Shown one piece after another: positions 14,044 to 60,422 of a stretch of 64,000 nucleotides of DNA. The position numbers and the translations under genes are program-made. The notes beneath the pieces are model-generated. The model had not been told where the DNA came from and searched no databases. It worked only from the letters and a program-made list of their open reading frames with translations. Location: positions 4,936-68,935 of IMG/VR virus record IMGVR_UViG_3300033141_003184; one strand, 5' to 3'. The stretch's first letter is position 1. Each line of letters opens with the position of its first letter. The stretch is from a virus.

Positions 14044-15012
14044 TTATTTAATTGTTTTTACATCTCTTTCCAATACAGGCAGAGCAACGCATCTACACAT
14101 CGGATGAACAGGAATCATCGGTTCAATTTCATCTAACGTATATATTTTACCTTCCAACCGAGCACAAATATCACAAACCCTATCATCACCAGCCGTAGAG
14201 AACTCCGCTCTGACTTTGACCCCAACAACTCCCCAATTTCTCATTTCCTGAACATTTGCCAAATGATACGCTCTTATTAACTCAGTTCGGGCAATCATTT
14301 CCGCCCTTCTCATAGCTGGAATGAATCTCCCCAAAGTATCAGTTATACCCAACTTTCCCATTCCAACCCCTTCAATAGTAGCAACCAATTTCCTCGCTAT
14401 CAATCTTGCTCCATCCCCCTGAATCATACCCTCTGCCAAAACACGAGCAATCTGAGAAGCCATAGCCTCTGTAACACCAACAAGATCAGTAAAAACCCGA
14501 GTAAAAAGAATTCCGACTCTATCCATATGAAAAGGAGTACTCATGGAAGCGGTTATTCCCCCTGTCTCCTCCAAAGACGGAACATCATACCCGGCAGCCC
14601 TCATCTCAGTCCTTGCCCTGGCAATACCTCTTTTGTAAGCATCCAAAACATAAAGATCAGTCCACGCTCCCATCAAAGGACGACCTAATTGCTCCATCTC
14701 GATTATCTCCAATATTCCTTTCTTAATCTCCTCCCTAATCCAGCTCATAAAAGCCTCTATTTGCTCTTCCGTAGTAAGAAAAGCAAATGCCCTATTACCC
14801 GGAGTTTGATAAACAGATGGTTTCTTCAGTCCAAATACATCTTCCTCATCAACTGACTTCCTTATTAACGATGATATCCCACGAAATCTCCTTCGCATAG
14901 CCCGAGCGAAGGCATTTCTCAAAGATAGAGTTCTCGTAGGATCATATCTCGAATAATCAGCAAACGTACAAACATGATCATAAGAACGTTGATATGTTTC
15001 TACCTCAATCAT
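14044..15012 (-). CDS. Head morphogenesis protein (Mu gpF/SPP1 gp7-like)
   Basis: RAEMIARTE, TAGDDRVCDIC and PVHPMCRC motifs. Confidence 0.9.
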   Translation of the reverse strand: MIEVETYQRSYDHVCTFADYSRYDPTRTLSLRNAFARAMRRRFRGISSLIRKSVDEEDVFGLKKPSVYQTPGNRAFAFLTTEEQIEAFMSWIREEIKKGILEIIEMEQLGRPLMGAWTDLYVLDAYKRGIARARTEMRAAGYDVPSLEETGGITASMSTPFHMDRVGILFTRVFTDLVGVTEAMASQIARVLAEGMIQGDGARLIARKLVATIEGVGMGKLGITDTLGRFIPAMRRAEMIARTELIRAYHLANVQEMRNWGVVGVKVRAEFSTAGDDRVCDICARLEGKIYTLDEIEPMIPVHPMCRCVALPVLERDVKTIK

Positions 15013-16445
15013 CTTACCATACTCCTATCTAATTCTTTTTGGACCTTACCATCAGGATTTGTTGCCTGTCCCTTCATTCTATCAACTATAGCTTGAGTCA
15101 ATTCCTCTTCTGCAATCTCCGCATCTCTCATTTTATTAATTAATTCAATCTGATCAGAAGTCAACCCAAGGAAAAATTGCATAAATGTACTCGGCGGAAT
15201 AATAGCTTCTGCCATAGGATTAAGAGTATACTCCCTCAGAGCAGTAGCCCTCGCTTTCCCAATATCAACTCTCGCTTTCTCACTCATGGAATAGAGATCA
15301 TCCCATTTTATAGTATATCCATCAGAAGGTTCTGGAAGAACTCCATGTTTTATAAGTTTATCAACCAACGGTCTCAAAATATGAGGTTCCACATGATCCT
15401 CTCTCCTTGCCTGAATAAACATCATCCACTCTCCACGATCCTCTGAAGAAGCCAGCTCTCCACGTTCACTACCAAGCAATATCCTTTGTGGAATCCCAGT
15501 AACAGCTGATATCATCTGAATCTGAATGTTAACATGGTTAGCCGGATCAGCTATTTGTTGAGCAAGAGATTCCAGTTCCAATCCCTCATTTACCAATATC
15601 CTTCTCAAATTATTTTCATACTCATCAATCTGATCCTTCAAATCCTGTTCAGTCTTTGAAGTCATCTGATAATTTGGAAGTATTTTTCCCTGATATCCAG
15701 GTCGTGCTCCCCTCCAAAACATCTCAGCATCACCACCAACCAATTTTTCCAAATCCATCAACCGATTATACACTGCTTGTAACTTTGGAATACCTTCTAC
15801 TTCCGATTCCAAAACATCCTCCACTACGTGAATAACCCGAGAATGATGAACCTTCACTGTTCTTGTATTGTTAGAAGCCGGATCAGTTGTAACTATGTCA
15901 TAAAATTCAGGCAAACCGTATCTCTTATCTTTATTATCACTAACGTACGAATTTATCTTAGCAGACTCCTCACTAAAAGGTTTTATATAGAACAACTTCC
16001 TTTTTCCGGACTTCACCGGCTTCGAGAAATCCTCAATTGTAGGAGTATCATCAAATCCCAACAATAGAACCCCGTACTTACCTATTCCTGCCAAACGATC
16101 AACCCTCGATAATACCGATTTCAAACCAAAGTCACGAAATAAATTAATCCAATCTTTTTCAAAAGTTGTCCTTTTTTCATCATTAGTCTCAATTAACTCT
16201 ATACTTCCCTGCCATGTCGCTTTTACCGGACGATCAATTATTGCCTTCGCTATATCTTGTCTCAAATACTTTGCATAATAATCAGAGAAGGTAATCTCCG
16301 TAGATGGATAACCGAGAGCTTTGTAAATCTCTCTATCTCCACCATACTGTTTCCCCAATTTAGACATCAGGGAAGCCCTTGTTACCAACATAGACAAGGC
16401 TTGTACTTTCTCTTCTAACGCTTGTATGGTCTTATTTTTTCTCAT
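15009..16445 (-). CDS. Portal protein (DUF1073-like)
   Basis: IAKAIIDRPV, VHHSRVIH, ISAVTGIPQRILLGSERGELAS; follows TerL. Confidence 0.88.
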   Translation of the reverse strand: MRKNKTIQALEEKVQALSMLVTRASLMSKLGKQYGGDREIYKALGYPSTEITFSDYYAKYLRQDIAKAIIDRPVKATWQGSIELIETNDEKRTTFEKDWINLFRDFGLKSVLSRVDRLAGIGKYGVLLLGFDDTPTIEDFSKPVKSGKRKLFYIKPFSEESAKINSYVSDNKDKRYGLPEFYDIVTTDPASNNTRTVKVHHSRVIHVVEDVLESEVEGIPKLQAVYNRLMDLEKLVGGDAEMFWRGARPGYQGKILPNYQMTSKTEQDLKDQIDEYENNLRRILVNEGLELESLAQQIADPANHVNIQIQMISAVTGIPQRILLGSERGELASSEDRGEWMMFIQARREDHVEPHILRPLVDKLIKHGVLPEPSDGYTIKWDDLYSMSEKARVDIGKARATALREYTLNPMAEAIIPPSTFMQFFLGLTSDQIELINKMRDAEIAEEELTQAIVDRMKGQATNPDGKVQKELDRSMVR

Positions 16446-16451
16446 TTTTAT

Positions 16452-17999
16452 TTATGTTATTCTCCTTACTCTTCTAACAGAAGTTAATTTGTTGAAAGCT
16501 CCACTCGCCGCATCAACCTGATCTTTATAAGTCGAATATGGAAAAAATCTATGTTCCTCCATAAAATCCCTATTCCACACCCCCCTTAGTAATAAAACAT
16601 TCCCATTATTTACCTGAACAGAATATGGATCAGCTCTAAATACTTTATCACCGGTAGGTCTCTCAGCATAACAAGAGAATCCGGCAAGATTCCTTATTGT
16701 AGCTTCAGCTGAATCCTTCCCACCCGATCCCGGTTCCTGTTCTATCCAAACTATTGTATTTACTCCATCAACCTCAGCAGTAGATCGTATGATCTCTTCT
16801 CTATCACTGCTATTCCATTGTCCCCTCTTTACATCCCTCACCAAAAACTTTCCATTCAACAAAAGACTCATTTTCACCCCAACAGTATAAGCTCCACCAT
16901 CTTGTGTAGCTGCTTTATCCCAATACCTTATAGTAGAAACGATATGAGACTCGTTTGGAGAAGTATCCACTATCATAAAATTACTAACTTTAAACATACC
17001 TCCACCTGGAGGAGTTGGATCCTGACCGATCTGTCCGGCATATCCATATTGACCAAGATCAGCCTCTAAATCATTCAATACCGACCAGGGCATTCTCGTC
17101 GGGTCCAATAGGTCATTCTTATAATTCTTTACAAGATGCGCCGGAGATACCTTTTTCTTAAACCTTCTTATTTCCCCAGGAAGACATATATGTTTTATAT
17201 TTTCCTTCCTCTTATCCAATAGATGACCCGCAGGATCATTCTGATGCAATCTCTGCATAATCAATATTGTCGGAGTGACCGCTTTATCAGTTTTTCTCGT
17301 AGGGAGAGTCTGTTCCATCCAACGGTTGGCATTAGCCAACTCAATTTCAGATGCCGACTGTTGTGGGTTAAGCGGATCATCAACAATCAAAATATCACCA
17401 TGAAACCCAGTTAAAGTACCTCCCACTGATGTGGAGTAACGATTACCCCCCTGAATCAACTTTGGTCTCCGTCCCGGAGAAGTCTCCTTTTTAATAATAA
17501 TACGGAAATTCGATTTTGTATCTTTATCCTCCCTTATGGAAATCTCCGGGTACATATCCTGAAAAGGTTTGGAACGAATCAAATCCCTGGAATATTCCGC
17601 GGACTCCAATGATAAAACAGATGAGTATGAAGCTGTAATAAATCGCATCCATGACCACTTTGTCCAACACCACACAGGAAACATTATCGAACAAGTAATC
17701 GTTTTTGTACTACCTGGCGGAACATTTATAACAAGATCGTACTCCCTCGGTTTCCTCTCAGCGACTCTCTCAGCTATCTTTTCCAATTCCCTGCATAGAT
17801 ATTCAATATGCCAATTCCCCTGAAATTCATGAGGAGAAACCTGATCCCAAAAATATTGAAGAAAATGATAAAGAGAACGATTATTGAGTTCCCTATCAAT
17901 AGCCACCGGATTCTGAATAGCCTTCAAAAGAAGATCAGACTTATCATCAGACGGTAATCCGGTCAACTTTACATCCGGTATATCAATTTGGGTCGACAT
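16452..17999 (-). CDS. terL: Terminase large subunit
   Basis: INVPPGSTKT Walker A, LIVDDP Walker B, IMQRLHQND, YWDKAAT, EQEPGSGGK and DQVDAAS nuclease motifs. Confidence 0.95.
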   Translation of the reverse strand: MSTQIDIPDVKLTGLPSDDKSDLLLKAIQNPVAIDRELNNRSLYHFLQYFWDQVSPHEFQGNWHIEYLCRELEKIAERVAERKPREYDLVINVPPGSTKTITCSIMFPVWCWTKWSWMRFITASYSSVLSLESAEYSRDLIRSKPFQDMYPEISIREDKDTKSNFRIIIKKETSPGRRPKLIQGGNRYSTSVGGTLTGFHGDILIVDDPLNPQQSASEIELANANRWMEQTLPTRKTDKAVTPTILIMQRLHQNDPAGHLLDKRKENIKHICLPGEIRRFKKKVSPAHLVKNYKNDLLDPTRMPWSVLNDLEADLGQYGYAGQIGQDPTPPGGGMFKVSNFMIVDTSPNESHIVSTIRYWDKAATQDGGAYTVGVKMSLLLNGKFLVRDVKRGQWNSSDREEIIRSTAEVDGVNTIVWIEQEPGSGGKDSAEATIRNLAGFSCYAERPTGDKVFRADPYSVQVNNGNVLLLRGVWNRDFMEEHRFFPYSTYKDQVDAASGAFNKLTSVRRVRRIT

Positions 18000-18588
18000 G
18001 TTCCTCCAATTGTTTTAATCCTATCCTCTTTAACATTTTTAATTCTTCTGTAGTCATTTTGGAAAAATCAATATTTGTCACCGACAATCTCTTTTCGGTT
18101 ATTTCTGTTCTCTGCACATCCGTCCAACGTCCCCGCTGACGCATTGACAACCATTTCATAGCCGCCCAGGAATCCGGTGGAAAGTATTTCTTTACCTTAA
18201 CCACTTCAACTCCATATTTTGTTTTCACCACCTGTTCAATCTCCTTTTCAAATCCGACCGCCCGCTTATAAAGAGCTTCTGCAACATTGGAATCCGCTTC
18301 CATCTTACCCATTTGTAGAGCTTCCCTAAACTCTTTTTTATCCTTTTTCCACATTTGGATGGTCGAATAACTGACTCCGATAATCTTAGCCATCTCCTCT
18401 TCAGTAGCTCCGAGCAAAGCCAACCGATACACCTGTTCCGGACGATCCTCTGTCCACTTTGACTTAAAAACCCCACTTTTACCGGATAACTTAATATCTT
18501 CCAAACCAATTACACCCTCATCCGGTCTCTTACTATCATTAAAGATTTTTGTAACTTTCACTCCTATGTCTATTTTGGAGTCTTTCAT
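17983..18588 (-). CDS. terS: Terminase small subunit
   Basis: HTH LALLGATEEEMAKIIGVSYSTIQMWK; ADSNVAEALYKRAVG..PPD; immediately upstream of terL. Confidence 0.85.
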   Translation of the reverse strand: MKDSKIDIGVKVTKIFNDSKRPDEGVIGLEDIKLSGKSGVFKSKWTEDRPEQVYRLALLGATEEEMAKIIGVSYSTIQMWKKDKKEFREALQMGKMEADSNVAEALYKRAVGFEKEIEQVVKTKYGVEVVKVKKYFPPDSWAAMKWLSMRQRGRWTDVQRTEITEKRLSVTNIDFSKMTTEELKMLKRIGLKQLEEHVDPN

Positions 18589-19141
18589 ATAATAAAAAAA
18601 TAAGTATTTCAAAACAAGGTCCTAAATTTACATTCAAATAAAATAAATTCCAACCACTACCAAAACCGATATTCACTTTATTAACCACCTGTTCATATGA
18701 TGTTTATTGGGAAAATTCCAAATAACACAACTTTATTATCATCTTTATAACCACTTTTACCAAATTCCAAAACAAAAACGTCAAATTTGTACAAACCAAA
18801 AAACAAGAAAATTCCAAAATCACACACCCCACCTAAATTTTTTGGAACAAACCAGTATCAATCATTCCAAAAAATTCCAAAAAATTCCCATTCCTGACTT
18901 CTCCTTATATATAAAAAACAAAACCGATACACTGGTTAATAACTATGAACTTTCACTTAAAAATTACCCAAATAATACAAAATTCTTATATAATCATATT
19001 CCTCTCCATATAAAAAATTCCACTCCCTACTCCAATATCAGATATTACCCAACCTATAAAAGTCGATTATACCGCCCTAAAAATCACTCATACATAAGAA
19101 ACATAAGAGTATAAATCATAGGATAAGTATATTAAAGACTC

Positions 19142-19278
19142 TTGGAAAATTCCAACCTATATTTTCCCGTAATATCTTTTATAAGAGATTTTGGAAGGTT
19201 CCAAGTCAGAATATGGAATAGAGTGTGTAAAATAGTATACCCGATTTTGGAATTTTCCAAAGTTTTAGAATTTTCCAA
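19142..19278. repeat. Array of 14-bp palindromic TTGGAA-NN-TTCCAA sites
   Basis: Copies at 19142-19155, 19191-19204 and 19247-19260, plus variant TTAGAATTTTCCAA at 19265-19278; extra TTCCAA half-sites between ~18645 and 18890. Confidence 0.85.
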
Positions 19279-19392
19279 AATGGTACGTCTGGTTTGTGGA
19301 GGGGTCGTTCCACCCCCCATTTATCCCCCATCCCCCAAATACCTACGTATCTATATATGATAATAATTAGATATGATCATCCCATATCAAAT

Positions 19393-19571
19393 TATCTAAA
19401 TAGATAGATATATTGATAATTTGATATGATCTTTAATCCCTTGATAGATAAATATTTATCTATTTATATATGATAATAAGTAAATATGATTGATCCCGGA
19501 TGGATGGATCAGATTATTTTTTATCCAAATATTCACATATCTATCTATCAATATATCTATCTATTTAGATA
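19393..19571. repeat. 26-bp perfect inverted repeat
   Basis: TATCTAAATAGATAGATATATTGATA (19393-19418) and its reverse complement (19546-19571); an overlapping 14-bp IR lies at 19383-19396/19415-19428. Confidence 0.85.
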
Positions 19572-19781
19572 TTTTAATATACCATATCCCTATCTTTAAT
19601 CAATCTAAATAAGGATAAGATGATCCTTATTTTTATTTAGATTTGATTTAGATAAGGATGGATTTATTTTTATTTAGATTGATTATAAATTATCAAAATA
19701 TGATAAAAATCATTTTTTTTATAAAAATATATCCTGATCTTTATATTGATAAAATTATTTATTAATCAAAATTTATCAATT

Positions 19782-20156
19782 ATGGATCAAAAAATCAAAT
19801 CCGATCCTGGGATTAAAGATCAATCCCAGGATCAAATGGATAAAAATCAGATCATTGATGATCTGATAAAATCCATCAAATCATTAAATCCTAATAAATC
19901 TATTATTAGGATATCCAAAAAATCAATTATCGAGATGATGATCCGATATCCTGGGGGATCATCCCTTAAAGATATGGGATTAATGATCAAAAAATTAGGG
20001 ATTGATGATGATCTGGATAAAAATATCAGGGTATCCCGATTATGGATATCAAAATTAGGATATCGGATTATAAGGATAGGGGATCGATATTATCCTGATC
20101 CTGATGATCCCAATAATCCTGATCATCCGGATTATCAAAAAAATCATAAAGGATAA
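19782..20156 (+). CDS. Small DUF3489-like winged-HTH protein, paralogue 1 (GAT-coded)
   Basis: ISKKSIIEMMIRYPGGSSL..M...IKKLGIDDDLDKNIRVSRLWISKLG aligns with 22911..23207 and 35167..35667. ATG at 19782 follows the leader AAAATTTATCAATT, also used at 20702. Confidence 0.8.
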   Translation: MDQKIKSDPGIKDQSQDQMDKNQIIDDLIKSIKSLNPNKSIIRISKKSIIEMMIRYPGGSSLKDMGLMIKKLGIDDDLDKNIRVSRLWISKLGYRIIRIGDRYYPDPDDPNNPDHPDYQKNHKG

Positions 20157-20175
20157 AAATTTTATGATTTTATAA

Positions 20176-20216
20176 AAGGATAAGATTTTATAATCTTATC
20201 CTTATTATCCTTTTTT
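20176..20216 (+). terminator. Probable intrinsic terminator
   Basis: AAGGATAAGATT-TTAT-AATCTTATCCTT hairpin, then a T tract, after the 19782 ORF. Confidence 0.6.
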
Positions 20217-20322
20217 ATGGGGATATCTAAGATATCCCTAAAGACCCCCTATGATCCTGATCCAAATCAGGATATCAGGATTTCATGGGATACGATCTTT
20301 GATATTTTGATATGGGATAAAT

Positions 20323-20428
20323 GGGATTGATATAATATTCCGGGATTTCATCAATTTCTCCGGATTCCCGATCGGATCAGGATCAATCCGGGATAGGGGA
20401 TGAAATCCGGGAATCAAGGATCAATCCC
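20323..20428 (+). ncRNA. Long irregular hairpin upstream of an early gene (possible processing site)
   Basis: Nested pairs GGGATTGAT/ATCAATCCC, ATTCCGGGATTTCATC/GATGAAATCCGGGAAT and CCGGATT/AATCCGG. Confidence 0.55.
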
Positions 20429-20465
20429 GGAAACTTTTGTCTAACTTTATAAAAATTTATTAATC

Positions 20466-20696
20466 ATGAAAAGTCCGTTAAAAGAGGCTTTAATGAAAGC
20501 CAGGAAAGATTATGAAAAAAAGGAAATGCCCGTGGATTATTATAAAATTAAAATCCTTGAGGCTTTGGAATCAGATTATGATGATGTCTATGATGAAATA
20601 AATATCATCAGAGCACTTTCAGAAGTCACCCGGGTGTTATCGGATGAATTATTGGAAGATATGAAAATCTTGGATAAAGAAGAATATTTTGATTAA
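20466..20696 (+). CDS. Hypothetical acidic early protein
   Basis: 76 aa, D/E-rich C-terminal half; TGTCTAAC leader. Confidence 0.75.
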   Translation: MKSPLKEALMKARKDYEKKEMPVDYYKIKILEALESDYDDVYDEINIIRALSEVTRVLSDELLEDMKILDKEEYFD

Positions 20697-20715
20697 TCTT
20701 AAAAATTTATCAATT

Positions 20716-20817
20716 ATGAAAACCATGGAAAGAAAAGCAGATATGAATAGATTGTTTGGATTGGCAATGTTTGTAATTGCAGTCATATCTTTGATGATTA
20801 TGATTGCATCAATCTGA
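20716..20817 (+). CDS. Small single-TM peptide (33 aa)
   Basis: MKTMERKADMNRLFGLAMFVIAVISLMIMIASI; same leader as the 19782 ORF; followed by a terminator. Confidence 0.6.
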   Translation: MKTMERKADMNRLFGLAMFVIAVISLMIMIASI

Positions 20818-20819
20818 TT

Positions 20820-20855
20820 AATAGGGGGATCAAAAATGATCCCCCTATTTTTTTT
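20820..20855 (+). terminator. Intrinsic terminator
   Basis: AATAGGGGGATCA-AAAA-TGATCCCCCTATT followed by a T run. Confidence 0.9.
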
Positions 20856-20994
20856 ATCATTTTATATCTTTATGAAACTACAGAAATAAATCCTATCAAT
20901 TATCTTTTTTGAAACTCAGGAATGCCCAGGAAATTACGGGAAAGAAAGTTGTGAATTAAATCTTTTGAAACTCCCAAAAAAATTCAATTATTTC

Positions 20995-21026
20995 TTTGGA
21001 TTTTCCCGGATTTCTCCTGATCTTTA
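20995..21026 (+). promoter_or_regulatory. Bacteroidota-type sigma70 promoter variant
   Basis: TTTG-N20-GATCTTTA, against the consensus TTTG-N19-21-TAnnTTTG. Confidence 0.5.
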
Positions 21027-21084
21027 ATATTGGATTAAAAGATATAATAAATTTCAATGTCTAACTTTATAAAATTAATTAATC

Positions 21085-21606
21085 ATGAAAACTTTAGAAG
21101 AATTATCAAAATCAAACGCCGATGAATATCGGGAAGAAGTCGAGGGATATATGATCTCGGCGACTGAAGCTCTGGTAAAAAGAGCATTCTTATTACGACA
21201 GAATGCTATTTATCGCTCGTGTAACCCGGGAATGCCGAAAGATAAGTCTCTTGATGAGACTGATCAAATCATTCGTGGAGGAGATCAATATCTGAGGGAA
21301 TATGAAGACATTATGATGATGTCTTGGAAAGTCTCCTCTGTGAATCTAAATGGGGTAAGGGAAGTCGTAGTCGAAAATGTTCCGGACGAACTCCTGGAAC
21401 TCGGAGAAAAGGCTATAAGGGATAACCTAAAAGGAAATCCCGATAATGAGAAGAGAGAAGGGAAAGGAACAATAATTGCTCCAATTACGAATTGGGCGGA
21501 GGTGTTTGAACTGGCATTATCATCATTATCTGAAATTCTTCCTCTTCCTTATGATATATTTGAGGGAGCATTTTGGATAGAAGATGGAAAATTCTATTTT
21601 AACTAA
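21085..21606 (+). CDS. Hypothetical early protein
   Basis: 173 aa; AATGTCTAAC leader. Confidence 0.8.
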   Translation: MKTLEELSKSNADEYREEVEGYMISATEALVKRAFLLRQNAIYRSCNPGMPKDKSLDETDQIIRGGDQYLREYEDIMMMSWKVSSVNLNGVREVVVENVPDELLELGEKAIRDNLKGNPDNEKREGKGTIIAPITNWAEVFELALSSLSEILPLPYDIFEGAFWIEDGKFYFN

Positions 21607-22910: not shown

Positions 22911-23207
22911 ATGGAAACTGTGGAAACTATTCAAGCAGCTGTAGTAAACCCCAAGGAAGGGAAAACTACCAGGGAAGCTCAGGAAACTGAGAAAAAACCC
23001 CGGGTTACAAAAAAGTCCGTGGTGATTGAATTGATCTCAAAAGGTGATGGAGCTACCGTCAACCAGATTGCAAAGGAAATTGTCAGGAGAGGGATCGACG
23101 CCGATCTTGAGAAAAACAAGAGAGTAGTACGTCTCTGGCTCAGCAAGCTCGGAATGCCTGTGCAACGAGATAAAGAGACCGGAAAGTACACTCCTGTTAA
23201 GAAGTAG
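22911..23207 (+). CDS. Small DUF3489-like winged-HTH protein, paralogue 2 (ribozyme-flanked)
   Basis: TKKSVVIELISKGDGATVNQIAKEIVRRGIDADLEKNKRVVRLWLSKLG. Confidence 0.85.
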   Translation: METVETIQAAVVNPKEGKTTREAQETEKKPRVTKKSVVIELISKGDGATVNQIAKEIVRRGIDADLEKNKRVVRLWLSKLGMPVQRDKETGKYTPVKK

Positions 23208-33943: not shown

Positions 33944-34306
33944 ATGTATGCAATCACAAAGGAATTTACATTTGCTGCTGGACATTTCTTGGAAAAGCTC
34001 CCTTTCGAGCATAAATGTTCCAGATTACACGGGCACAATTACTCAGTTATCGTGGAGTTACGTTCAGACTCTCTCAATGCATCAGATTTCGTATTGGATT
34101 ATGACGAGTTACGTCATTCAATCGGGAAATGGTTAGACGAGCATTGGGATCATAGGGTTCTTAATGATGTGATGTCTGTTAATCCATCTGCTGAGAATAT
34201 GGCAAAAGTATTATATCGGATATTCAAAACCTTATTTCCAAATCTCCTGTACTCTGTTACAGTAAAGGAGACAGATAAAACAACTGCTAAATATTGGGAA
34301 GAATGA
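33944..34306 (+). CDS. queD: 6-carboxytetrahydropterin synthase
   Basis: FAAGH...KCSRLHGHNY...DHRVLN...PSAEN...VKET. Confidence 0.93.
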   Translation: MYAITKEFTFAAGHFLEKLPFEHKCSRLHGHNYSVIVELRSDSLNASDFVLDYDELRHSIGKWLDEHWDHRVLNDVMSVNPSAENMAKVLYRIFKTLFPNLLYSVTVKETDKTTAKYWEE

Positions 34307-35091
34307 GTAAGAAAATAATTAGCTTTGGAGAATTAAGAAGTCCTTACGATAATTTAATTAGTCGCCTAAAGCCGGGAAAGGAAAATGAGCCAAAATTATT
34401 TGTGTCGGAATTATTTTCGGAAACTATACAAGGGGAGGGGGTTACAGTAGGTACTCCTGCTGTGTTCCTAAGATTAGGTGGGTGTACATTAAACTGCTCC
34501 TGGTGTGACACCAAAGAAATATGGAATACCGGTAAGAAGTATCCTATTTCTACATTGGCAGGAATTATGAATATCTCGGGAATTTTAGCAGACTTTACAT
34601 TCTATAACTCTTTTGTAATTACCGGTGGTAGTCCTCTGTTACAACAAAAGGGGATAATAAAGCTGTTACATACTATTAAAAGAGAGTTTAATATTTCTCC
34701 TTCTGTGGAAATAGAGAATGAGTGTGTAATCAAACCAGACAAAAGACTTATTCCTTTGGTTGATGTTTGGAATAATTCCCCAAAGTTGAGTAATTCCGGT
34801 AATCCAAAGGATAAAAGGTATAAGCCAGATATAATAGAATTCACTGCTAATCTTCCTAATTCATGGTTTAAGTTTGTAGCAGGTTCAGAAAAGGATATTA
34901 AAGAAATAATGGATGATTTTTTGTTCCCTAAACTGATTCGAAGGGAGCAGGTTTTGCTTATGCCGGAAGGAAACACCAGAAGGAAGCAAAGGGGAAATAG
35001 TGAAAGAGTAATTGAGTGGTGTAGAAAATATGGATTTCGTTATTCTCCACGACTCCAGGTTCTCCTTTGGGATGATTCTTTGTCGGTTTAA
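34303..35091 (+). CDS. queE: 7-carboxy-7-deazaguanine synthase (radical SAM)
   Basis: TIQGEG, FLRLGGCTLNCSWCDT (CxxxCxxC), ITGG.PLLQ, SPKL, LMPEG, SPRLQ. Confidence 0.92.
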   Translation: MSKKIISFGELRSPYDNLISRLKPGKENEPKLFVSELFSETIQGEGVTVGTPAVFLRLGGCTLNCSWCDTKEIWNTGKKYPISTLAGIMNISGILADFTFYNSFVITGGSPLLQQKGIIKLLHTIKREFNISPSVEIENECVIKPDKRLIPLVDVWNNSPKLSNSGNPKDKRYKPDIIEFTANLPNSWFKFVAGSEKDIKEIMDDFLFPKLIRREQVLLMPEGNTRRKQRGNSERVIEWCRKYGFRYSPRLQVLLWDDSLSV

Positions 35092-35166
35092 TTTTTCTCG
35101 AGAATTCCAAATTATTTTATTTGGTTTGGATATTATAATAATAGATAACTTAAAAAATATTTGATT

Positions 35167-35667
35167 ATGTCTACCAAAATTTCAAGAAAACAGCTTGAGA
35201 AGGTCGCTCAGGAACTGAATGACGTTCTCGGATTAAAGCCTCCGATATCTATTAGTAAAGATGACAGAAGATTATTGGAGGGTGTTCGTCGTGGTATCAG
35301 GTACATTGACTGGGAAGCCGATGAATTTTCTGAAGAGACTTCCGATCTTATCAATAAGATTATTGAGGATTGGGCAGAGGAATATGAGAAAAGGGAAGAA
35401 GAAAAGAAGAAGGCTAAAGAAAAAGAACCAAAAAAGAAAGAGAGGAAATCTAAGACCGGAGCGGTAACTAAGAAATCGGTTATTGTGGATATGATTTCCA
35501 GGGAAGGTGGAGCTTCTATTGAAGAAATCTCCAGAGAGATTGAACGACTCGGGATCGATTCAGATCACGAGAAAAACCTTCGGGTGGTTCGTCTTTGGTT
35601 ACGGAAGATGGGATATGATGTAAGATTAAAAGAAGTGGGAAATACTGATAAAATTCGTAAAAAGTGA
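35167..35667 (+). CDS. Two-domain protein with C-terminal DUF3489-like wHTH, paralogue 3
   Basis: C-terminus TKKSVIVDMISREGGASIEEISREIERLGIDSDHEKNLRVVRLWLRKMG. Confidence 0.8.
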   Translation: MSTKISRKQLEKVAQELNDVLGLKPPISISKDDRRLLEGVRRGIRYIDWEADEFSEETSDLINKIIEDWAEEYEKREEEKKKAKEKEPKKKERKSKTGAVTKKSVIVDMISREGGASIEEISREIERLGIDSDHEKNLRVVRLWLRKMGYDVRLKEVGNTDKIRKK

Positions 35668-36140
35668 TAAACGATTCTATTTATTCAAGTAGATCGTCAA
35701 TGTGGGAAACCCCGTGGGATTTGTTTCGATCTTTAGATAGGGAATTCCATTTCCAAGTGGATGTTTGCGCTATTAAGGAAAATGCTAAATGCCCTACTTT
35801 CTTCTCTCCGGAAATCAATGGTTTGAAACAAGACTGGACAAGGTTCTCTTCTTGTTTTATGAATCCCCCGTACGGAAGAGAAATAAGTCGTTGGGTAAGG
35901 AAAGCTTATGAGGAGTCAAAGAAGGGAACTACAGTAGTAGCTCTTCTACCAGCAAGGACTGATACCCGCTGGTTTCATAATTATATTTATAAAAAGGAAG
36001 GAGTAGAAATTCGGTTTCTAAAGGGGAGATTGAAATTTATGAATAGAACATTACCATCATATAGAAGTGATGGTAAATTTAGGATTTCGAATGCTCCATT
36101 TCCATCAATGATAGTGGTATTCAAAAACGGGGAAAAATGA
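35664..36140 (+). CDS. Phage N6-adenine DNA methyltransferase (T1/HP1 Dam-family)
   Basis: WETP..LF, DVCA..NAKC, MNPPYG, LLPARTDTRWFH, GRLKF, APFPS. Confidence 0.9.
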   Translation: MINDSIYSSRSSMWETPWDLFRSLDREFHFQVDVCAIKENAKCPTFFSPEINGLKQDWTRFSSCFMNPPYGREISRWVRKAYEESKKGTTVVALLPARTDTRWFHNYIYKKEGVEIRFLKGRLKFMNRTLPSYRSDGKFRISNAPFPSMIVVFKNGEK

Positions 36141-36143
36141 GCT

Positions 36144-36827
36144 ATGATGCGGACTTGTGCTGTTTGTGGGAGAAAGATGAAAGCAGTTAATTCCTCTCAT
36201 TTACGTAGTGTTCATAATATGACGAAAGAGGAGTATTTTAAATTATTTCCTGATGGTGATTTCGGACAGGATAAATATGAATTAACTAAGGAACAACGCA
36301 AGAAGATATCTGATGCTCAACGTGGTAGAAAAAAATCTCCGAAGGAGTTAAAGAAGATATCGAGACTTGGGTGGCATCACTCAGAAGAAACTAAAGCAAA
36401 GATGTCAGCTACCAGAAAAGGTAGGAAGGCTTGGAATAAAGGATTAACAGGTACATTTAAACATACAGAGGAATATAAAAGGAAGATGAGTAAACAACAA
36501 GCCAAATTGATCGCTGAAAGGAGTCGTGGATCACCTACTTCGATAGAGTTAAAAATTAAAGAGATTTTAATTGACATTGGGATAGAATTCAAACAACAAT
36601 TTATCATTGGTAGAAAGTTCTCAGTTGATTTTTTTGTCCCAAAAGCAAATCTCATTATTGAATGTAATGGAGATTACTGGCATAATAGGGAGGATATAAA
36701 AAAGAAGGATAAAAGAAAAATGAAATACTTGGAAGTTTGTGGATTTAATATCTTGATATTGTGGGAACATGAAATAAATTCTGATATTACTAAATGTAAA
36801 CAAAAGATAATTGATAGAATACAATGA
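36144..36827 (+). CDS. Free-standing homing endonuclease-like protein (Zn finger, NUMOD3, DUF559/Vsr-like nuclease)
   Basis: CAVC..HLRSVH; HHSEETKAKMS and HTEEYKRKMS; VDFF..IIECNGDYWH..LILWEHE. Confidence 0.85.
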   Translation: MMRTCAVCGRKMKAVNSSHLRSVHNMTKEEYFKLFPDGDFGQDKYELTKEQRKKISDAQRGRKKSPKELKKISRLGWHHSEETKAKMSATRKGRKAWNKGLTGTFKHTEEYKRKMSKQQAKLIAERSRGSPTSIELKIKEILIDIGIEFKQQFIIGRKFSVDFFVPKANLIIECNGDYWHNREDIKKKDKRKMKYLEVCGFNILILWEHEINSDITKCKQKIIDRIQ

Positions 36828-37690
36828 GAGATGGTGATTCTATAGATGGAAAAAGGATAGTATATAAAGTTGGAGATGATGAAAATCCAAGAGAAGTATA
36901 CGCATCAACGTACCAAATGAGGAACTTTTACGCTCAGTTTGCGGATGGTTTCTTTTCCTCATTGGACGTGATGAATTACATACAGCATCATGCAGCGGTT
37001 CTTAAAATGAAGAAAGGATGGCGGGTATTGGATGTTTGTTGTGGTAGGGGATTACTTCTACCAATGATAAGGTATTACCGTCCAGATATTGCTGAGTACA
37101 TTGGAATTGACTTATCAGAAAGAAATATTTCCGAGCAACTGCGACGATCCGGGATCAAGAAAATCGAGGATGTTCGCAAGTACTATCCATTCAAACTCAC
37201 TCATATCATAGATAGCGTGGAGTTTATGGATAAGTACATTAAATCAAACTCAGTGGATTTTATTGTTTACACATCCTCAATTGAACATATGCAGAAAGAT
37301 GTTGGGTATAAGTCTCTTCAGCATTGTTTTTCTGTATTGAAATCTGAGCATCAAATGTTCTTCTCTTGTCCAAATACTATTGACAAAGAAGATCCGTATG
37401 ATACTCAGTATGCTGCTCATGTGTATGAGTGGAATATCCACGAGCTTCGGAAAGCTTTGGAGGAAATCGGATTCGAGATTAAAGAGGAATATGGGTTAGT
37501 AGCTAAAGTAAAGAAGTTTGAGAGATGGTTAGAAGCGAGGGACGATCATGTATTAACTGAACAATATAAACAACTCAAAAAGTACCTTCCTACCGCTTGG
37601 TTAATGCCTTACATCTCTCTTCTTTACCCAGAAGCTGCTGATGAAGTGTTAATGATAGTGGAAAAACCATCAATCTATAAATTACTTTAA
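36824..37690 (+). CDS. Class I SAM-dependent methyltransferase
   Basis: VLDVCCGRG motif I, YIGIDLS, SSIEHM, SCPNT..HVYEW. Confidence 0.85.
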   Translation: MRDGDSIDGKRIVYKVGDDENPREVYASTYQMRNFYAQFADGFFSSLDVMNYIQHHAAVLKMKKGWRVLDVCCGRGLLLPMIRYYRPDIAEYIGIDLSERNISEQLRRSGIKKIEDVRKYYPFKLTHIIDSVEFMDKYIKSNSVDFIVYTSSIEHMQKDVGYKSLQHCFSVLKSEHQMFFSCPNTIDKEDPYDTQYAAHVYEWNIHELRKALEEIGFEIKEEYGLVAKVKKFERWLEARDDHVLTEQYKQLKKYLPTAWLMPYISLLYPEAADEVLMIVEKPSIYKLL

Positions 37691-37691
37691 T

Positions 37692-38261
37692 ATGAAAAGA
37701 TCAGATGAACAAAAAAAGATTGCTGAAAAGCTTGTAAGAGATCAACTTACAATGATTGGAGAGAATCCAGATAGGGAGGGATTACAGAAAACCCCCTACC
37801 GAATTGTAAAAATGTGGGATGAGATATTCTCTGGTTACGATAAGAAACCGGAGGATGTCCTTACTGTGTTTGATGCCGATGGGTATGATCAGATTATTCT
37901 CTTGAAAGATATTGAACTATATAGTATGTGCGAACACCATATGTTGCCTTTTTATGGTAGAGCTCATGTTGCTTATGTTCCATGGAGGAAAATTGTTGGT
38001 ATTTCTAAACTTGCTCGTTTGGTTGATATCTATGCCAAACGCCTTCAAATACAGGAACGAATAGGAGAACAGGTTACTGATGCTTTGATGAGATTGCTCG
38101 ATCCGAAGGGAGCAGCTTGTATTATTGAAGCTACCCATATGTGCATGCGCATGCGAGGAGTAGAGAAACAAAATTCCGTGATGGTTACTTCTTCCCTTGG
38201 TGGAGTGTTTCTCACCAAACCAGAGGCTCGAGAAGAATTAATGCAGCTAATAAGAAGATGA
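37692..38261 (+). CDS. folE: GTP cyclohydrolase I
   Basis: REGLQKTP.R, SMCEHHMLPF.G, GISKLAR, RLQIQER, HMCMRMRG. Confidence 0.96.
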   Translation: MKRSDEQKKIAEKLVRDQLTMIGENPDREGLQKTPYRIVKMWDEIFSGYDKKPEDVLTVFDADGYDQIILLKDIELYSMCEHHMLPFYGRAHVAYVPWRKIVGISKLARLVDIYAKRLQIQERIGEQVTDALMRLLDPKGAACIIEATHMCMRMRGVEKQNSVMVTSSLGGVFLTKPEAREELMQLIRR

Positions 38262-39322
38262 ATATATACCTTGCTGGTACTCCGGGAATAAGAAGTAGAG
38301 AGAGATTATGGCAGAAGATTACAAAAAGGAGGTTGTTATCATTTGGTGATATTCTATTAAATACGTTTAATGTAAGATATGCTTTTGAATTAATTGAGAA
38401 TGGAATGGGAAAAAAGGTAGAGTTATTTTTGGATTCCGGAGCCTTCTCCGCTTGGTCCAGAGGAGTGAAAATAGATATAGAGGAGTACATTTCTTTTATC
38501 AAAAAACACTCCGATGTCATTTCCATTTATGCAAATCTTGATGTAATTGGAGGAGACTCGGGAGTTCCTGGAGAAGAAACTGCTCGGAGAACCCTTGAGA
38601 ATCAACGCATAATGGAGAAGGCTGGATTATCTCCACTTCCTGTGTTTCATTATGGAGAACCATATGAATATCTTGAGAAGTACGTGGAAGAGTATGATTA
38701 TATAGCTTTGGGGGTAGCAGGTAATTCCGGAGTAAAGTTAGTTCCGTGGTTAAATGAATGTTTTTCCAAGTATATTTGTGATGAGGATGGACTTCCGAAA
38801 GTAAAGGTTCATGGATTTGCTGTAACTTCCCTAAAGTTAATGATCATGTATCCTTGGTTTAGCGTAGATAGCACTTCATGGGTTATTACCAGCAGGATGG
38901 GTTCTATATTCGTTCCCAGATATAGAAATGGAAAGTGGATATATGATGAACAATCTTGGAAGATAGCGGTTTCTGCGAGAAGTCCAAAGAAGAAAGTGAG
39001 TGGAATGCATATCACTACTCTATCTCCAAAGCAAAGGAAGGTATTTCTTGATTATATTCATTCTAAGGGATTTAGGTTGGGTAAGAGCGATTTTGTTTAT
39101 GTAGATAAGGGTAGGATGTTGTCAGAAGGAGAACGTTGGGCAGAGCCGGCAAAAAGGGGAGAAAATAAGAGGTTAATGGAAGTAATAGTAGAGCCGGGAT
39201 TATGTAATGTATATCAGATGAGAGATCAGATAAATATTATGTATTTTTTGGATTTGGAAAAAAGTTTGCCAGAGTGGCCTTGGTCATTTAAGAGAAAGGA
39301 GGTAGTAAATGGATTCTTCTAA
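38258..39322 (+). CDS. dpdA: DpdA-like DNA guanine transglycosylase (TGT fold)
   Basis: FLDSGAFSAW, NLDVIG, PVFHYGE, YIALG, VHGFA, PWFSVDSTSW; ATG at 38258 overlaps the folE stop. Confidence 0.85.
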   Translation: MNIYLAGTPGIRSRERLWQKITKRRLLSFGDILLNTFNVRYAFELIENGMGKKVELFLDSGAFSAWSRGVKIDIEEYISFIKKHSDVISIYANLDVIGGDSGVPGEETARRTLENQRIMEKAGLSPLPVFHYGEPYEYLEKYVEEYDYIALGVAGNSGVKLVPWLNECFSKYICDEDGLPKVKVHGFAVTSLKLMIMYPWFSVDSTSWVITSRMGSIFVPRYRNGKWIYDEQSWKIAVSARSPKKKVSGMHITTLSPKQRKVFLDYIHSKGFRLGKSDFVYVDKGRMLSEGERWAEPAKRGENKRLMEVIVEPGLCNVYQMRDQINIMYFLDLEKSLPEWPWSFKRKEVVNGFF

Positions 39323-39902
39323 ATGGAAAGATGATTTTCAGAAAGGAAAGAAGGATAGGGAGCTTGTTACAAAAAACATGAATGAGTTTCTTATTGAGCA
39401 CGATCTTATGATAATGCCTCTTCATAAATATATAAAGACTATGCGTCCGGTTGAGAAGTTTCATAATAATACTTCCAAAAATAGATTGGAAGAGGTGGGA
39501 TTCGTAAAAGCTATGGGATTAGATCATGTGATTTGTGATTTGAATGATGGAGTGACTCAACCGGTGATGATAAGATTTTCTAATGATTTTGGGGTTTACA
39601 TCAAATTACCTACTGATTTTATTGATAAACCGAAACAGTTTTTGAATATCATTGAAGATTACTGGTTTATTTTTGTTCTGAGAAGGGATGGTATTGTAAA
39701 AGATGCTTACGCAAGTATTATAACTGTAAAGGAAATAGTTTCTAAATATGGTATTGACTGGGGAGTATATGATTCTAAAGGAAATAAGAATAGGTTGTTT
39801 ATTCATATGAATCCATCGCTGTTTGATTATCGTCCACCCCATGAAGAAGATATATTTGGAGATAGCTTTGTTAAACAGTTATTGAGAAGACTATCGAGAT
39901 GA
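39309..39902 (+). CDS. Hypothetical protein
   Basis: 197 aa; AAGGAGGT RBS; no motif recognised with confidence. Confidence 0.7.
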   Translation: MDSSKWKDDFQKGKKDRELVTKNMNEFLIEHDLMIMPLHKYIKTMRPVEKFHNNTSKNRLEEVGFVKAMGLDHVICDLNDGVTQPVMIRFSNDFGVYIKLPTDFIDKPKQFLNIIEDYWFIFVLRRDGIVKDAYASIITVKEIVSKYGIDWGVYDSKGNKNRLFIHMNPSLFDYRPPHEEDIFGDSFVKQLLRRLSR

Positions 39903-59899: not shown

Positions 59900-59901
59900 A
59901 A

Positions 59902-60407: not shown

Positions 60408-60422
60408 TTGAAATATTTTTAA

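What the first reader, a model, noticed from the sequence alone, without database searches (positions are those of the whole stretch)
19349..20430. About 1 kb written in a GAT-only alphabet at the probable first-injected genome end
Seen: from 19349 almost every G run is followed by AT and every C run is preceded by AT, on both strands. GC is absent, and GT/AC, GAA/TTC and GAG/CTC nearly so. By eye only two violations occur between ~19585 and 20240. The rule starts abruptly, relaxes to G-then-A at ~20285-20430, then fades. The segment lies between terS and the first early gene. Inference: this is strong selection on k-mer content, with three possible explanations. (a) Every G sits in the context modified by the phage DpdA or Dam-family enzyme, so all possible restriction or PAM sites are shielded. 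(b) The leading DNA has purged all other recognition sites. (c) GAT is the unmodified context that host RNA polymerase needs. Known: T7 and T5 avoid restriction sites in first-entering DNA, but I know of nothing this extreme.
Basis: partly seen in the sequence, partly recalled or inferred. Interest (0 to 1): 0.92.

Follow-up and report, generated by a model that had tools for sequence, protein, structure and literature searches.

The report
Phage DNA block with single G-context
About 1 kb of this uncultured phage's DNA, next to its packaging genes, allows G and C in almost only one neighbour context (G…AT / AT…C), even inside a real gene, and related phages have similar blocks with other allowed contexts, which suggests strong DNA-level selection tied to how the phage chemically modifies its guanines.

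Summary
In window 19349-20240, 142 of 148 G/C runs obey "G-run then AT / AT then C-run", against 16.4% elsewhere (binomial tail about 1e-102). GC is absent from all 1082 bp, where 20.6 copies are expected. The block is unique in the 68.9-kb genome. It starts abruptly on the terS side and decays gradually over about 1 kb into the + strand genes. It contains a conserved winged-helix gene recoded to fit the rule.

Relatives carry blocks at the same place with other rules: GAT (G002), strict GA with no GG (L089/L095), and GA-avoiding/GT-rich (G001, G004). Some close relatives have none.

The phage encodes a 7-deazaguanine pathway with DpdA. Published DpdA motifs are also defined by the base after G (GA).

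My best reading (about 0.4) is a genome-end block selected so that every G:C run sits in the context the phage's own modification enzyme reads. Three things are not shown: that this is the first-injected end, which enzyme sets the rule, and whether the allowed context is the modified or the unmodified one. A Dam/GATC rule is disfavoured.

The scan's other notes on this genome concern the recoded gene, not relatives. I found no published equivalent.

The parts
16452..17999 (-). terminase large subunit gene
   Evidence: phrog_38, E 2.8e-81. It was used to fetch relatives.
17983..18612 (-). terminase small subunit gene. It is transcribed away from the block.
   Evidence: phrog_309, E 6.7e-36
18613..19297 (.). 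terS-upstream spacer that obeys no G-context rule. It carries repeated TTGGAAnnTTCCAA-type palindromes (for example 19142-19155, 19189-19205, 19245-19261, 19263-19279) and a strong C-over-G skew. It may be a terminase or regulator binding region (inference).
   Evidence: Repeat families D3, D5, I15, I16, I19 and I23. GC skew is -0.5 to -0.68. GAT fraction is 0.13-0.16, at background.
19298..19348 (.). G/C-run boundary element (GGGG..., CCCCCC, ATCCCCC x2). The rule starts directly after it.
   Evidence: Sequence and TRF row 19323-19337. Comparable G/C-run elements sit at the block onset in G001, G002 and G003.
19349..20240 (.). Core of the restricted-alphabet block: G runs followed by AT and C runs preceded by AT.
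   Evidence: 142 of 148 runs comply. See the trinucleotide table. There is no periodicity of GAT/ATC: 0 of 40 lags reach |z|>3. There is no tandem array.
19337..19595 (.). Four copies of a 41-nt repeat, partly arranged as a 60-nt inverted pair (19369-19428 and 19536-19595). They may be early promoters or protein-binding sites (inference).
   Evidence: Families D1 and I1. Promoter-like matches do not exceed the shuffles: 16 found against a mean of 17.5.
19782..20156 (+). First + strand gene. It encodes a 124-aa winged-helix-type protein written almost wholly within the rule, with 2 violating codons.
   Evidence: Translation. It aligns with two paralogues and two orthologues, with 12 invariant columns. 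A+V+T+E make up 2 of 124 residues, against 37 of 98 and 45 of 168 in the paralogues. In the model, 67 residues have pLDDT >= 90.
20176..20203 (+). terminator-like hairpin after the gene
20241..20430 (.). Relaxed tail. G-then-A still holds, and GAA/TTC are admitted. It contains a long hairpin at 20322-20430.
   Evidence: Inverted pair I2. RNA fold -56.5 kcal/mol, z -3.2.
20431..21500 (.). Decay zone inside the next + strand genes, where GA and GAT remain above background.
   Evidence: Per 300 bp, GA is 0.77, 0.69, 0.71 and 0.64, and GAT is 0.50, 0.44, 0.29 and 0.16. Background is 0.50 and 0.165.
33944..39322 (+). 7-deazaguanine cluster, in order:
- QueD 33944-34306
- QueE 34294-35091
- winged-helix paralogue 35161-35667
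- Dam-family methyltransferase 35664-36140
- HNH/Vsr-like endonuclease 36144-36827
- class I methyltransferase 36824-37690
- FolE 37692-38261
- DpdA 38141-39322

There is no QueC. The enzymes here are candidates for setting the allowed context.
   Evidence: QueD has the CxxxHGH motif. QueC (PF06508) is absent from the whole record.

Best explanation
The block is a position-specific product of selection on double-stranded DNA. It lies next to the packaging genes, most likely at a fixed genome end.

In this stretch every G:C run has been forced into one 3'-neighbour context (G...AT, read on either strand). That neighbour is the same variable that phage DpdA guanine transglycosylases read when they swap G for a 7-deazaguanine.

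Most likely every G run in the block carries a modified G at its 3' end. The DNA that is exposed first, or longest, before phage counter-defences act would then offer no unmodified G-containing recognition site.

The pressure falls off with distance from the sharp boundary.

What is shown:
- the rule itself and its strand symmetry
- its uniqueness in the genome
- its polarity
- its override of protein coding
- its recurrence with other rules in relatives
- the presence of DpdA

What is inferred:
- that the boundary is a physical end
- that this end enters first
- that DpdA, rather than a methyltransferase, sets the rule
- that the allowed context is the modified one
For: 1. The rule is strand-symmetric and indifferent to coding. 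This points to duplex DNA, not RNA or protein.

2. It overrides protein sequence but respects function.
   - The winged-helix gene keeps 12 invariant family columns and folds with 67 residues at pLDDT >= 90.
   - It has lost A, T, F and C entirely and keeps one V and one E.
   - Changes such as E to D and A to S need transversions and are conservative. That looks like selection, not a transition-only mutation burst.

3. The block is unique in the genome. Its onset is sharp and its decay is one-sided. G002 and L089 show the same polarity.

4. It is not a tandem array or a phased array.

5. Independent assemblies carry blocks at the same place with different rules:
   - G002 follows GAT (up to 0.90 per 300 bp).
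   - L089/L095 follow strict GA, with 181 of 183 G runs of length 1.
   - G001 and G004 are GA-depleted (GA 0.00-0.25 against 0.42 genome-wide).

6. The rule goes with the modification system.
   - G000, G002 and G003 share a DpdA (57-62% identity) and a class I methyltransferase.
   - G001 and G004 have a DpdA only 30-35% identical and a QueC-like gene.

7. Published DpdA motifs have the same form, G defined by its 3' neighbour.
   - Iggy has strict GA with about 97% of sites modified. CAjan has GA plus GGC (and GGT).
   - The modification protects against restriction enzymes and Cas9 in vitro (PMC10484667, passages read).
   - G000 DpdA is 31-33% identical to those two enzymes.

8. There is precedent that only the first-entering DNA needs to escape restriction.
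   - T5 first-step-transfer DNA: bioRxiv 10.1101/866236, passages read.
   - Autographiviridae leading region: PMC12455610, abstract read.

9. Weak support for an end or break here: only 4 of 38 metagenome contigs extend more than 1.7 kb upstream of terL, against 13 of 38 downstream (Fisher p 0.026).
Against: - No terminus data exist. No sequencing run was listed. The record closes into a circle, and its end repeat lies inside an ORF of at least 621 aa. Headful packaging with permuted ends is therefore not excluded.
- In G000, 25 of 76 G runs in the core are longer than one. About a third of the G residues are followed by G, not AT, and a simple GA(T) motif would leave them unmodified.
- Iggy, the one phage with a proven strict GA motif, has no GA-only block. 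Its last 500-bp window has the lowest GA fraction of its genome (0.039 against 0.171, z -3.5). CAjan shows only a mild dip (z -2.3).
- DpdA is not sufficient. G007 (DpdA 56% identical) and G006 (38%) have no block.
- The closest TerL relatives with enough upstream sequence (L077, L079, L024) have no block.
- The link between system and rule rests on 3 genomes against 2. These also differ in replication genes, so it may be a single phylogenetic contrast.
- A DNA amino-methyltransferase is present in all 3 GA(T)-type genomes (PF05869 in G000, PF01555 in G002 and G003). Of the three methyltransferase families searched, none was found in the 2 GA-avoiding genomes. DpdA is therefore not the only candidate.
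- Near-total compliance needs a strong cost per non-compliant G. Ordinary site-specific restriction does not obviously supply that.
Confidence: 0.4

Rival explanations
1. Modification-free island. The allowed context is the one the phage's transglycosylase does not touch. The block would then be the only stretch of virion DNA with ordinary guanines. Two reasons are possible. Host RNA polymerase, terminase or an end-binding protein may need to read it. Or modification-dependent host defences (type IV enzymes, deazaguanine glycosylases) may otherwise hit the first DNA to enter.
For: - Iggy, with a proven GA motif, has a GA-poor end. About 330 terminal bp are almost free of GA.
- The G001 and G004 blocks are best described as GA-avoiding, with GT, GC and GG all tolerated. 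That is the pattern expected when one narrow motif is purged.
- Defence glycosylases that destroy 7-deazaguanine DNA exist, and phages escape them by losing DpdA activity (bioRxiv 10.1101/2025.10.29.685425, passages read). Such a threat acts at every modified G and could give the strong per-site cost that is needed.
- The G000 gene set (FolE, QueD, QueE, no QueC) matches in outline that of Cellulophaga phage phiST, which replaces all G (PMC10516641, passages read).
Against: - For G000 and L089, the enzyme would have to modify G in nearly every context except GAT (or GA). No DpdA of that kind has been described.
- G000 DpdA resembles the DpdA1/2-type enzymes (31-36% identity), which modify a minority of G.
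- The G000 QueD is a true QueD (CxxxHGH), not the phiST-type DpdL.
Confidence: 0.2
2. General purge of defence recognition sequences from an exposed region, unrelated to the phage's own modification. GAT/ATC is simply the residue that the local host population's systems do not use.
For: - The genome shows site avoidance elsewhere. CTAG has 0 copies in 68.9 kb, and GGCC has O/E 0.37.
- Leading-region motif loss is documented in other phages.
Against: - A purge would more simply end in pure A/T. Instead G+C stays at about 25% and is concentrated in one context, with GAT/ATC 3.5-fold enriched.
- Palindromes that the alphabet allows are kept: GATC 20, GATATC 6, CCGG 2, TCGA 2.
- It is hard to see how unrelated host systems would produce clean single-context rules that differ between sister lineages.
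Confidence: 0.1
3. Mutational origin. End-proximal DNA is repeatedly exposed to a context-specific mutator, for example as single strands after resection. Candidates are a cytosine deaminase or biased repair. The mutator erodes every C/G except in its non-preferred context, and purifying selection keeps only what the gene and cis sites need.
For: - The decay with distance from a sharp boundary suits a process that starts at a DNA end.
- G+C is lowered to 0.155-0.335 within the block.
- Different hosts could carry mutators with different context preferences, which would explain the different rules.
Against: - The survival rule in G000 needs a -2 base dependence: ATC kept but TTC, CTC and GTC lost. 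It also needs tolerance of CC. That is odd for a deaminase.
- Amino-acid replacements in the gene are conservative and often need transversions (E to D, A to S), not the C-to-T/G-to-A outcomes (E to K, A to T/V).
- G+C in the block is close to that of the flanking intergenic DNA, 0.27-0.31.
Confidence: 0.1
4. A cis-acting site: a packaging (pac), replication-origin or injection-stop region densely bound by a GAT- or GATC-reading protein. Candidates are a Dam/SeqA-like system or the phage's own winged-helix proteins.
For: - The block lies next to terS. It has many direct and inverted repeats and a winged-helix gene with a paralogue in the modification cluster.
- G000 has a Dam-family gene.
- The T5 injection-stop region is likewise a repeat-rich stretch at the first-entering end.
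Against: - A need for many GAT sites does not explain the loss of every other G context.
- There is no phasing (0 of 40 lags) and no array.
- Only 20 of 73 GAT are GATC.
- PF05869 Dam is absent from G002, which has the block.
- The rule runs through a protein-coding gene and fades gradually into the next genes.
Confidence: 0.08
5. Assembly or sequencing artefact.
For: - Low-complexity DNA is hard to assemble.
- Many contigs of relatives break in or near the block.
Against: - The same kind of block, with a homologous gene inside it, is present in independent assemblies (G002, L089, L095).
- The gene inside G000's block is intact and homologous to two paralogues elsewhere in the genome.
Confidence: 0.01

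Closest known systems
Restriction-motif loss in first-entering phage DNA (T5 first-step-transfer region; leading region of T7-like Autographiviridae)
   Same: Only a short stretch at one place in the genome is under special pressure on its sequence content, and the rest of the genome is not. The stretch lies where early genes begin. The logic is that DNA present before counter-defence is expressed must itself be invisible to defence.
   Different: - Those cases concern the absence of one or a few specific recognition motifs. Here nearly all G/C contexts but one are removed over about 1 kb.
- A gene is recoded and the allowed context changes between relatives.
- Entry order and termini are not known for this phage.
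Sequence-specific 7-deazaguanine modification by phage DpdA (iggy: GA; CAjan: GA, GGC, GGT)
   Same: The phage has DpdA, FolE, QueD and QueE. The rule in the block is defined by the base(s) 3' of G on both strands, which is the form of the published motifs.
   Different: - No modification data exist for this phage.
- Iggy and CAjan have no GA-only block, and iggy's end is GA-poor.
- QueC is absent here and a class I methyltransferase is present, so the inserted base is unknown.
P1 pac site with clustered Dam (GATC) sites
   Same: A GATC-containing region next to packaging genes in a phage that encodes a Dam-family enzyme. The comparison with P1 is recalled, not taken from a call.
   Different: - The rule here is GAT, not GATC (20 of 73).
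- It spans about 1 kb, excludes all other G contexts, and occurs in G002 without a PF05869 Dam.
T5 injection stop signal region
   Same: A repeat- and palindrome-rich stretch at the boundary of the first-entering DNA. The block here has four 41-nt repeats and several long inverted repeats.
   Different: No compositional single-context rule is reported in the passages I read. DnaA boxes were not looked for here. Two-step entry is not known for this phage.

Membership tests
Leading-region (first-injected) defence-motif avoidance, as in T5 and T7-like phages | The region lies at the physical genome end that enters the cell first | not testable with these tools
   No sequencing run was listed. The contig end repeat is an assembly overlap inside an ORF. 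The only evidence is positional: the block is next to terS, at the divergence of the two gene arms. Weak contig-break evidence exists.
Leading-region (first-injected) defence-motif avoidance, as in T5 and T7-like phages | Sequence motifs are depleted there but not in the rest of the genome | tested here: met
   14 of 32 symmetric trinucleotides occur 0-3 times in the core. The block is the only such stretch in 68.9 kb. Among 216 background windows the maximum GAT fraction is 0.32, against 0.92-0.98 in the block.
Leading-region (first-injected) defence-motif avoidance, as in T5 and T7-like phages | The region encodes early or anti-defence functions | tested here: inconclusive
   The region holds one gene, a winged-helix-type protein of unknown role. 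It has no PHROG or Pfam hit above threshold. Foldseek gave no match at E <= 0.001, and the weak top rows are winged-helix regulators.
Phage DpdA 7-deazaguanine DNA modification system | A DpdA (TGT-like transglycosylase) gene | tested here: met
   Window 38141-39322 matches phrog_887 at E 3e-58. It is 31% identical to iggy DpdA and 33% to CAjan DpdA. It has no Pfam hit.
Phage DpdA 7-deazaguanine DNA modification system | Genes for precursor synthesis (FolE, QueD, QueE, QueC) | tested here: inconclusive
   FolE, QueD and QueE are present. QueC (PF06508) is absent from the whole record, while the control search hit 13 of 14 genomes. The pathway may stop at CDG or rely on the host.
Phage DpdA 7-deazaguanine DNA modification system | Modified guanines in virion DNA, in a defined sequence motif | not testable with these tools
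   This is an uncultured phage with no reads. The motif is inferred only from the block's rule.
Dam/GATC-controlled site (P1 pac type) | The site is made of GATC motifs, and a Dam enzyme goes with it | tested here: not met
   GATC makes up 20 of 73 GAT in the core, against 273 of 1415 elsewhere. PF05869 Dam is found only in G000, in 0 of 4 relatives including G002, which has a GAT block.
Tandem-repeat or iteron array | Head-to-tail copies of a unit, or regular spacing | tested here: not met
   TRF finds only 14 short rows of 1.9-6.8 copies, and none spans the block. Autocorrelation of GAT/ATC positions shows 0 of 40 lags with |z|>3.
Known RNA families (Rfam) | A match at the gathering score | tested here: not met
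   Six matches at E <= 1 in 18500-21200, all far below their gathering scores.

The most novel reading that the evidence does not exclude
The block is a dedicated, fast-evolving genome-end cassette. Its G-context is tuned to the phage's own guanine-modifying enzyme and can sit in either of two states.

- Fully modifiable: GA/GAT-only blocks, as in G000, G002 and L089. Every G run is shielded from restriction enzymes and CRISPR nucleases.
- Fully unmodifiable: GA-free blocks, as in G001 and G004, and more weakly the iggy end. The first DNA in the cell escapes defences that hunt modified bases.

Lineages flip between the states, or lose the block, as host defences change. On this reading the block sequence would reveal a phage's modification motif directly from its genome.
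Probability: 0.2. Interest if true: 0.95.

Novelty: new variant of a known kind. Interest (0 to 1): 0.85.

Why it matters
If the reading is right, three things follow.

- Pressure on the DNA of one short genome stretch can be strong enough to rewrite a protein's amino-acid make-up.
- It links two known phage strategies: base modification, and keeping the exposed DNA free of targets.
- It gives a purely computational way to read the target motif of a modification enzyme from an uncultured phage genome, because the allowed context in the block would be the motif or its complement set.

It also marks a probable fixed genome end and the first-acting gene in a clade that has no cultured member.

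Even without a mechanism, a 1-kb natural sequence that uses G and C in one context only, with a working gene inside it, is an unusual case of a constrained genetic alphabet.

Tried and rejected
- **Close cultured relatives.** A DNA search of the 7-kb neighbourhood against 50,697 phage records gave no match. The best cultured TerL relatives are Cellulophaga phages at 39% identity, so no terminus information can be borrowed.
- **Read evidence for termini.** No run was listed for window 18600-20600.
- **More DpdA-bearing relatives.**
  - The single-protein scan with G000 DpdA matched no pattern.
  - The scan with G001 DpdA gave only itself and one 37-kb contig.
- **TerL tree.**
  - The careful search did not finish, so the quick tree was used.
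  - 53 rows with at least 55% identity were used. Of these, 33 had too little upstream DNA to classify.
  - Block types are not clustered: GT needs 5 changes for 5 rows and strong GA needs 4 for 4. I do not draw an order of events from this.
- **Genome-wide palindrome avoidance as a test of the motif.** GATC O/E is 0.76-0.91 in all six genomes, so it is not informative.
- **Promoter scan.** Matches do not exceed the shuffles.
- **Rfam.** Nothing near the gathering scores.
- **Fold of the block's gene.** The topology is winged-helix, but there is no significant PDB match.
- **Weaker 'GT-type' blocks.**
  - Only G001 passes a 0.75 threshold genome-wide. G004 peaks at 0.74-0.76.
  - L094, L109, L078 and L080 (0.66-0.72) are on short contigs, and I count them as weak.
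  - L087's GTA/TAC stretch is largely a tandem repeat and may be a different thing.
- **Supplementary files** of the cited papers were not opened. Motif tables there may bear on DpdA specificity.
- **Searches for a published equivalent** and of this scan's notes found none. These were word searches of an open-access library only.
Full report
**What is there**

The window is bases 4936-68935 of a 68,935-bp viral record. The record's 114-bp end repeat lies inside an ORF of at least 621 aa, so it is an assembly overlap and not a terminus.

Genes left of about 18600 are on the minus strand. They include portal 15009-16445, terL 16452-17999 and terS 17983-18612. From 19782 rightwards the genes are on the plus strand. 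They include a helicase, primase, DnaB-like helicase, sliding clamp, a split UDG-exonuclease/PolA, clamp loader, RecA, SbcCD-like proteins and ThyX. The finding lies at the point where the two arms diverge.

- The fraction of G runs followed by AT plus C runs preceded by AT is 0.171 for the window. It is 0.88-1.00 in the four 200-bp bins from 19401 and 0.79 in the next.
- In 19349-20240, 142 of 148 runs comply, against 16.4% elsewhere (log10 binomial tail -101.8). In 19349-20430, 175 of 193 are GAT-type and 187 of 193 are GA-type.
- GC does not occur in the 1082 bp, where 20.6 copies are expected. GT occurs twice (55 expected) and AC four times (53 expected).
- In the core, 14 of 32 strand-symmetric trinucleotides occur 0-3 times.
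- The block is the only such stretch in the genome.

**Anatomy and polarity**

- On the terS side the rule starts within one 300-bp step (GAT 0.16 to 0.92). It begins right after a G/C-run element at 19298-19348.
- On the other side it decays. GAT per 300 bp is 0.94, 0.50, 0.44, 0.29, 0.16. GA returns to the 0.50 background only near 21500.
- Inside the block are:
  - four copies of a 41-nt repeat, partly inverted;
  - several long hairpins;
  - a gene at 19782-20156;
  - a terminator-like hairpin;
  - a long hairpin at 20322-20430.
- GAT/ATC positions show no phasing (0 of 40 lags with |z|>3).
- There is no tandem array and no Rfam family near threshold.

**A real gene is written in the restricted alphabet**

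The 124-aa product aligns with two paralogues in this genome (22911-23207, and the C-terminus of 35161-35667 in the deazaguanine cluster). It also aligns with orthologues in G002 and G003, with 12 invariant columns.

It has no A, T, F or C, one V and one E. A+V+T+E make up 2 of 124 residues, against 37 of 98 and 45 of 168 in the paralogues. One of the two rule violations in the gene (20029, GTA) falls at an alignment position where three of the four relatives also have Val.

Replacements are conservative and often need transversions, for example LEKN to LDKN and GGA(T/S) to GGSS. The G003 orthologue uses ordinary codons and the G002 orthologue is intermediate. The model has 67 residues at pLDDT >= 90 and a helix-helix-helix-hairpin topology. 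Foldseek gives only weak rows (E >= 0.14), nearly all winged-helix regulators.

So the pressure acts on DNA and is balanced against protein function. This agrees with earlier first-reader notes on this genome, which I re-tested here.

**Relatives**

TerL searches gave 43 viral and 80 metagenome loci. Blocks occur at the same place, upstream of terS, in several of them:

| Genome / locus | Rule | Detail |
|---|---|---|
| G002 (TerL 68%) | GAT | About 1.2 kb, up to 0.90 per 300 bp, same sharp-then-graded shape, homologous gene inside |
| L089/L095 | Strict GA | At least 1.4 kb, GA 0.87-1.00 per 200-bp bin (1.00 in 4 of the 7 bins); 181 of 183 G runs are single; GAA allowed; holds a 206-aa ORF |
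| G001, L015, G004 | GA-avoiding | GA/TC-containing trinucleotides depleted about 3-10 fold, GT raised to 0.6-0.83 |
| G003 | Weak GA bias | 0.70 |

- Several loci with at least 2 kb of upstream DNA have no block: L077, L079, L024, L012, L085, L105, L017, L020, L131, L027 and L125.
- On a quick TerL tree the block types are interspersed.
- Contigs of this clade rarely extend more than 1.7 kb upstream of terL (4 of 38, against 13 of 38 downstream, p 0.026). This fits either a physical end or DNA that is hard to assemble.

**The modification genes**

G000 has QueD (true CxxxHGH motif), QueE, FolE and a DpdA. It also has a PF05869 Dam-family methyltransferase, an HNH/Vsr-like endonuclease and a class I methyltransferase. 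It has no QueC anywhere in the record.

| Genomes | Block type | DpdA identity to G000 | Other genes |
|---|---|---|---|
| G000, G002, G003 | GA(T) | 57-62% (G002, G003) | Class I methyltransferase |
| G001, G004 | GA-avoiding | 30-35% | QueC-like gene shown for G001 |
| G005 | No block | No DpdA | |

It rests on 3 genomes against 2, which also differ in their replication genes.

Two further caveats apply:
- DpdA alone is not sufficient. G007 (56% identical) and G006 (38%) have no block.
- A DNA amino-methyltransferase of some family is present in all three GA(T)-type genomes. None of the three families searched was found in the two GA-avoiding genomes. A methyltransferase therefore remains a candidate. 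A GATC rule does not fit, because only 20 of 73 GAT are GATC.

**Comparison with what is known**

Published DpdA motifs are defined by the base 3' of the modified G. Iggy has strict GA with about 97% of sites modified. CAjan has GA plus GGC (and GGT). The modification blocks restriction enzymes and Cas9 in vitro (PMC10484667, passages). The rule in the block has the same form.

That only first-entering DNA must evade restriction is known for T5 (bioRxiv 10.1101/866236, passages). It is also known for T7-like phages (PMC12455610, abstract).

Iggy and CAjan share this phage's two-armed layout but have no GA-only block. Iggy's last 500-bp window has the lowest GA fraction of its genome (0.039 against 0.171). 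Its terminal 330 bp or so are nearly GA-free, with G8 runs. CAjan shows a mild dip.

Glycosylases that attack 7-deazaguanine DNA exist (bioRxiv 10.1101/2025.10.29.685425, passages). Selection could therefore favour either a fully modified or a modification-free exposed stretch.

**Verdict**

The feature is real, highly non-random, conserved in kind and variable in rule. I know of no description of it: literature searches and searches of the scan's notes found none.

The best-supported explanation is selection on a genome-end stretch to match the context read by the phage's own DNA-modifying enzyme. Most likely every G run carries a deazaguanine (confidence about 0.4). The mirror reading, allowed context = unmodified, gets about 0.2. 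A generic purge, a context-specific mutator and a cis-acting protein-binding site get about 0.1 each or less.

Four things remain unshown: the physical end, the order of entry, the enzyme responsible, and the sign of the effect. Modification mapping and terminus mapping would settle them.

Noticed in passing
whole G000 record; also G002 and G003: CTAG has 0 copies in the 68.9-kb genome (O/E 0.00), 4 in G002 and 3 in G003, against 22, 14 and 88 in G001, G004 and G005. GGCC has O/E 0.30-0.50 in five of the six genomes. This suggests restriction-type avoidance genome-wide, separate from the block.
   Followed up: partly
window 18613-19348: The terS-upstream spacer has five or six TTGGAAnnTTCCAA-type palindromes and a strong C-over-G skew (GC skew down to -0.68). 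It ends in a G/C-run element with ATCCCCC x2. Relatives have similar TTCCAAAA motifs and G/C runs at the block onset. These may be terminase or regulator sites.
   Followed up: partly
window 19782-20156, 22911-23207, 35161-35667; G001, G002 and G004 deazaguanine clusters: One winged-helix family has three copies in this genome. tblastn with the cluster copy places a member beside or between the deazaguanine genes in G001, G002 and G004; in G003 the best match lies instead at the block orthologue. Pfam DUF3489 matches are below the cut-off. The family may be an accessory or regulator of the modification system.
   Followed up: partly
window 33944-39902: The deazaguanine cluster has no QueC in the whole record. 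It has a true QueD (CxxxHGH) and a class I methyltransferase that is not the published DpdM family (DUF3109). A Dam-family gene is followed by an HNH/Vsr-like endonuclease. The inserted base is unknown, possibly CDG or a derivative.
   Followed up: partly
G003:C1:3276-5404 (L051, L054, L056): The DpdA homologue of G003 matches in two pieces, separated by about 900 bp, inside one 676-aa open frame. This suggests an inserted element such as an intein.
   Followed up: no
L089 185-805 (+): A 206-aa ORF rich in K, E, N, S, I, D, Q and L lies wholly inside the strict GA/TC block of L089 and points towards terS. It would be a second gene coded in a restricted alphabet, if real.
   Followed up: no
L087 about 1370-1720: About 350 bp upstream of terS use G/C almost only as GTA/TAC. 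Much of it is tandem ATACC/ATACA-type repeats and their inverse. It may be an iteron array rather than the same phenomenon.
   Followed up: no
L161 (iggy 59400-60628): The right end of Pseudomonas phage iggy is nearly free of GA/TC over about 330 bp and carries two G8 runs. Its last 500-bp window has the lowest GA fraction of the genome. GA is the proven DpdA motif of this phage.
   Followed up: partly
window 19762-19784, 20446-20468; L026: A TTTATTAATCA-like motif lies just upstream of the ATG of several + strand genes here and in G003 (family D8).
   Followed up: no
window 20322-20430: A long imperfect hairpin (arms of 44 nt; RNA fold -56.5 kcal/mol, z -3.2) closes the block just before the next gene's leader.
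   Followed up: partly
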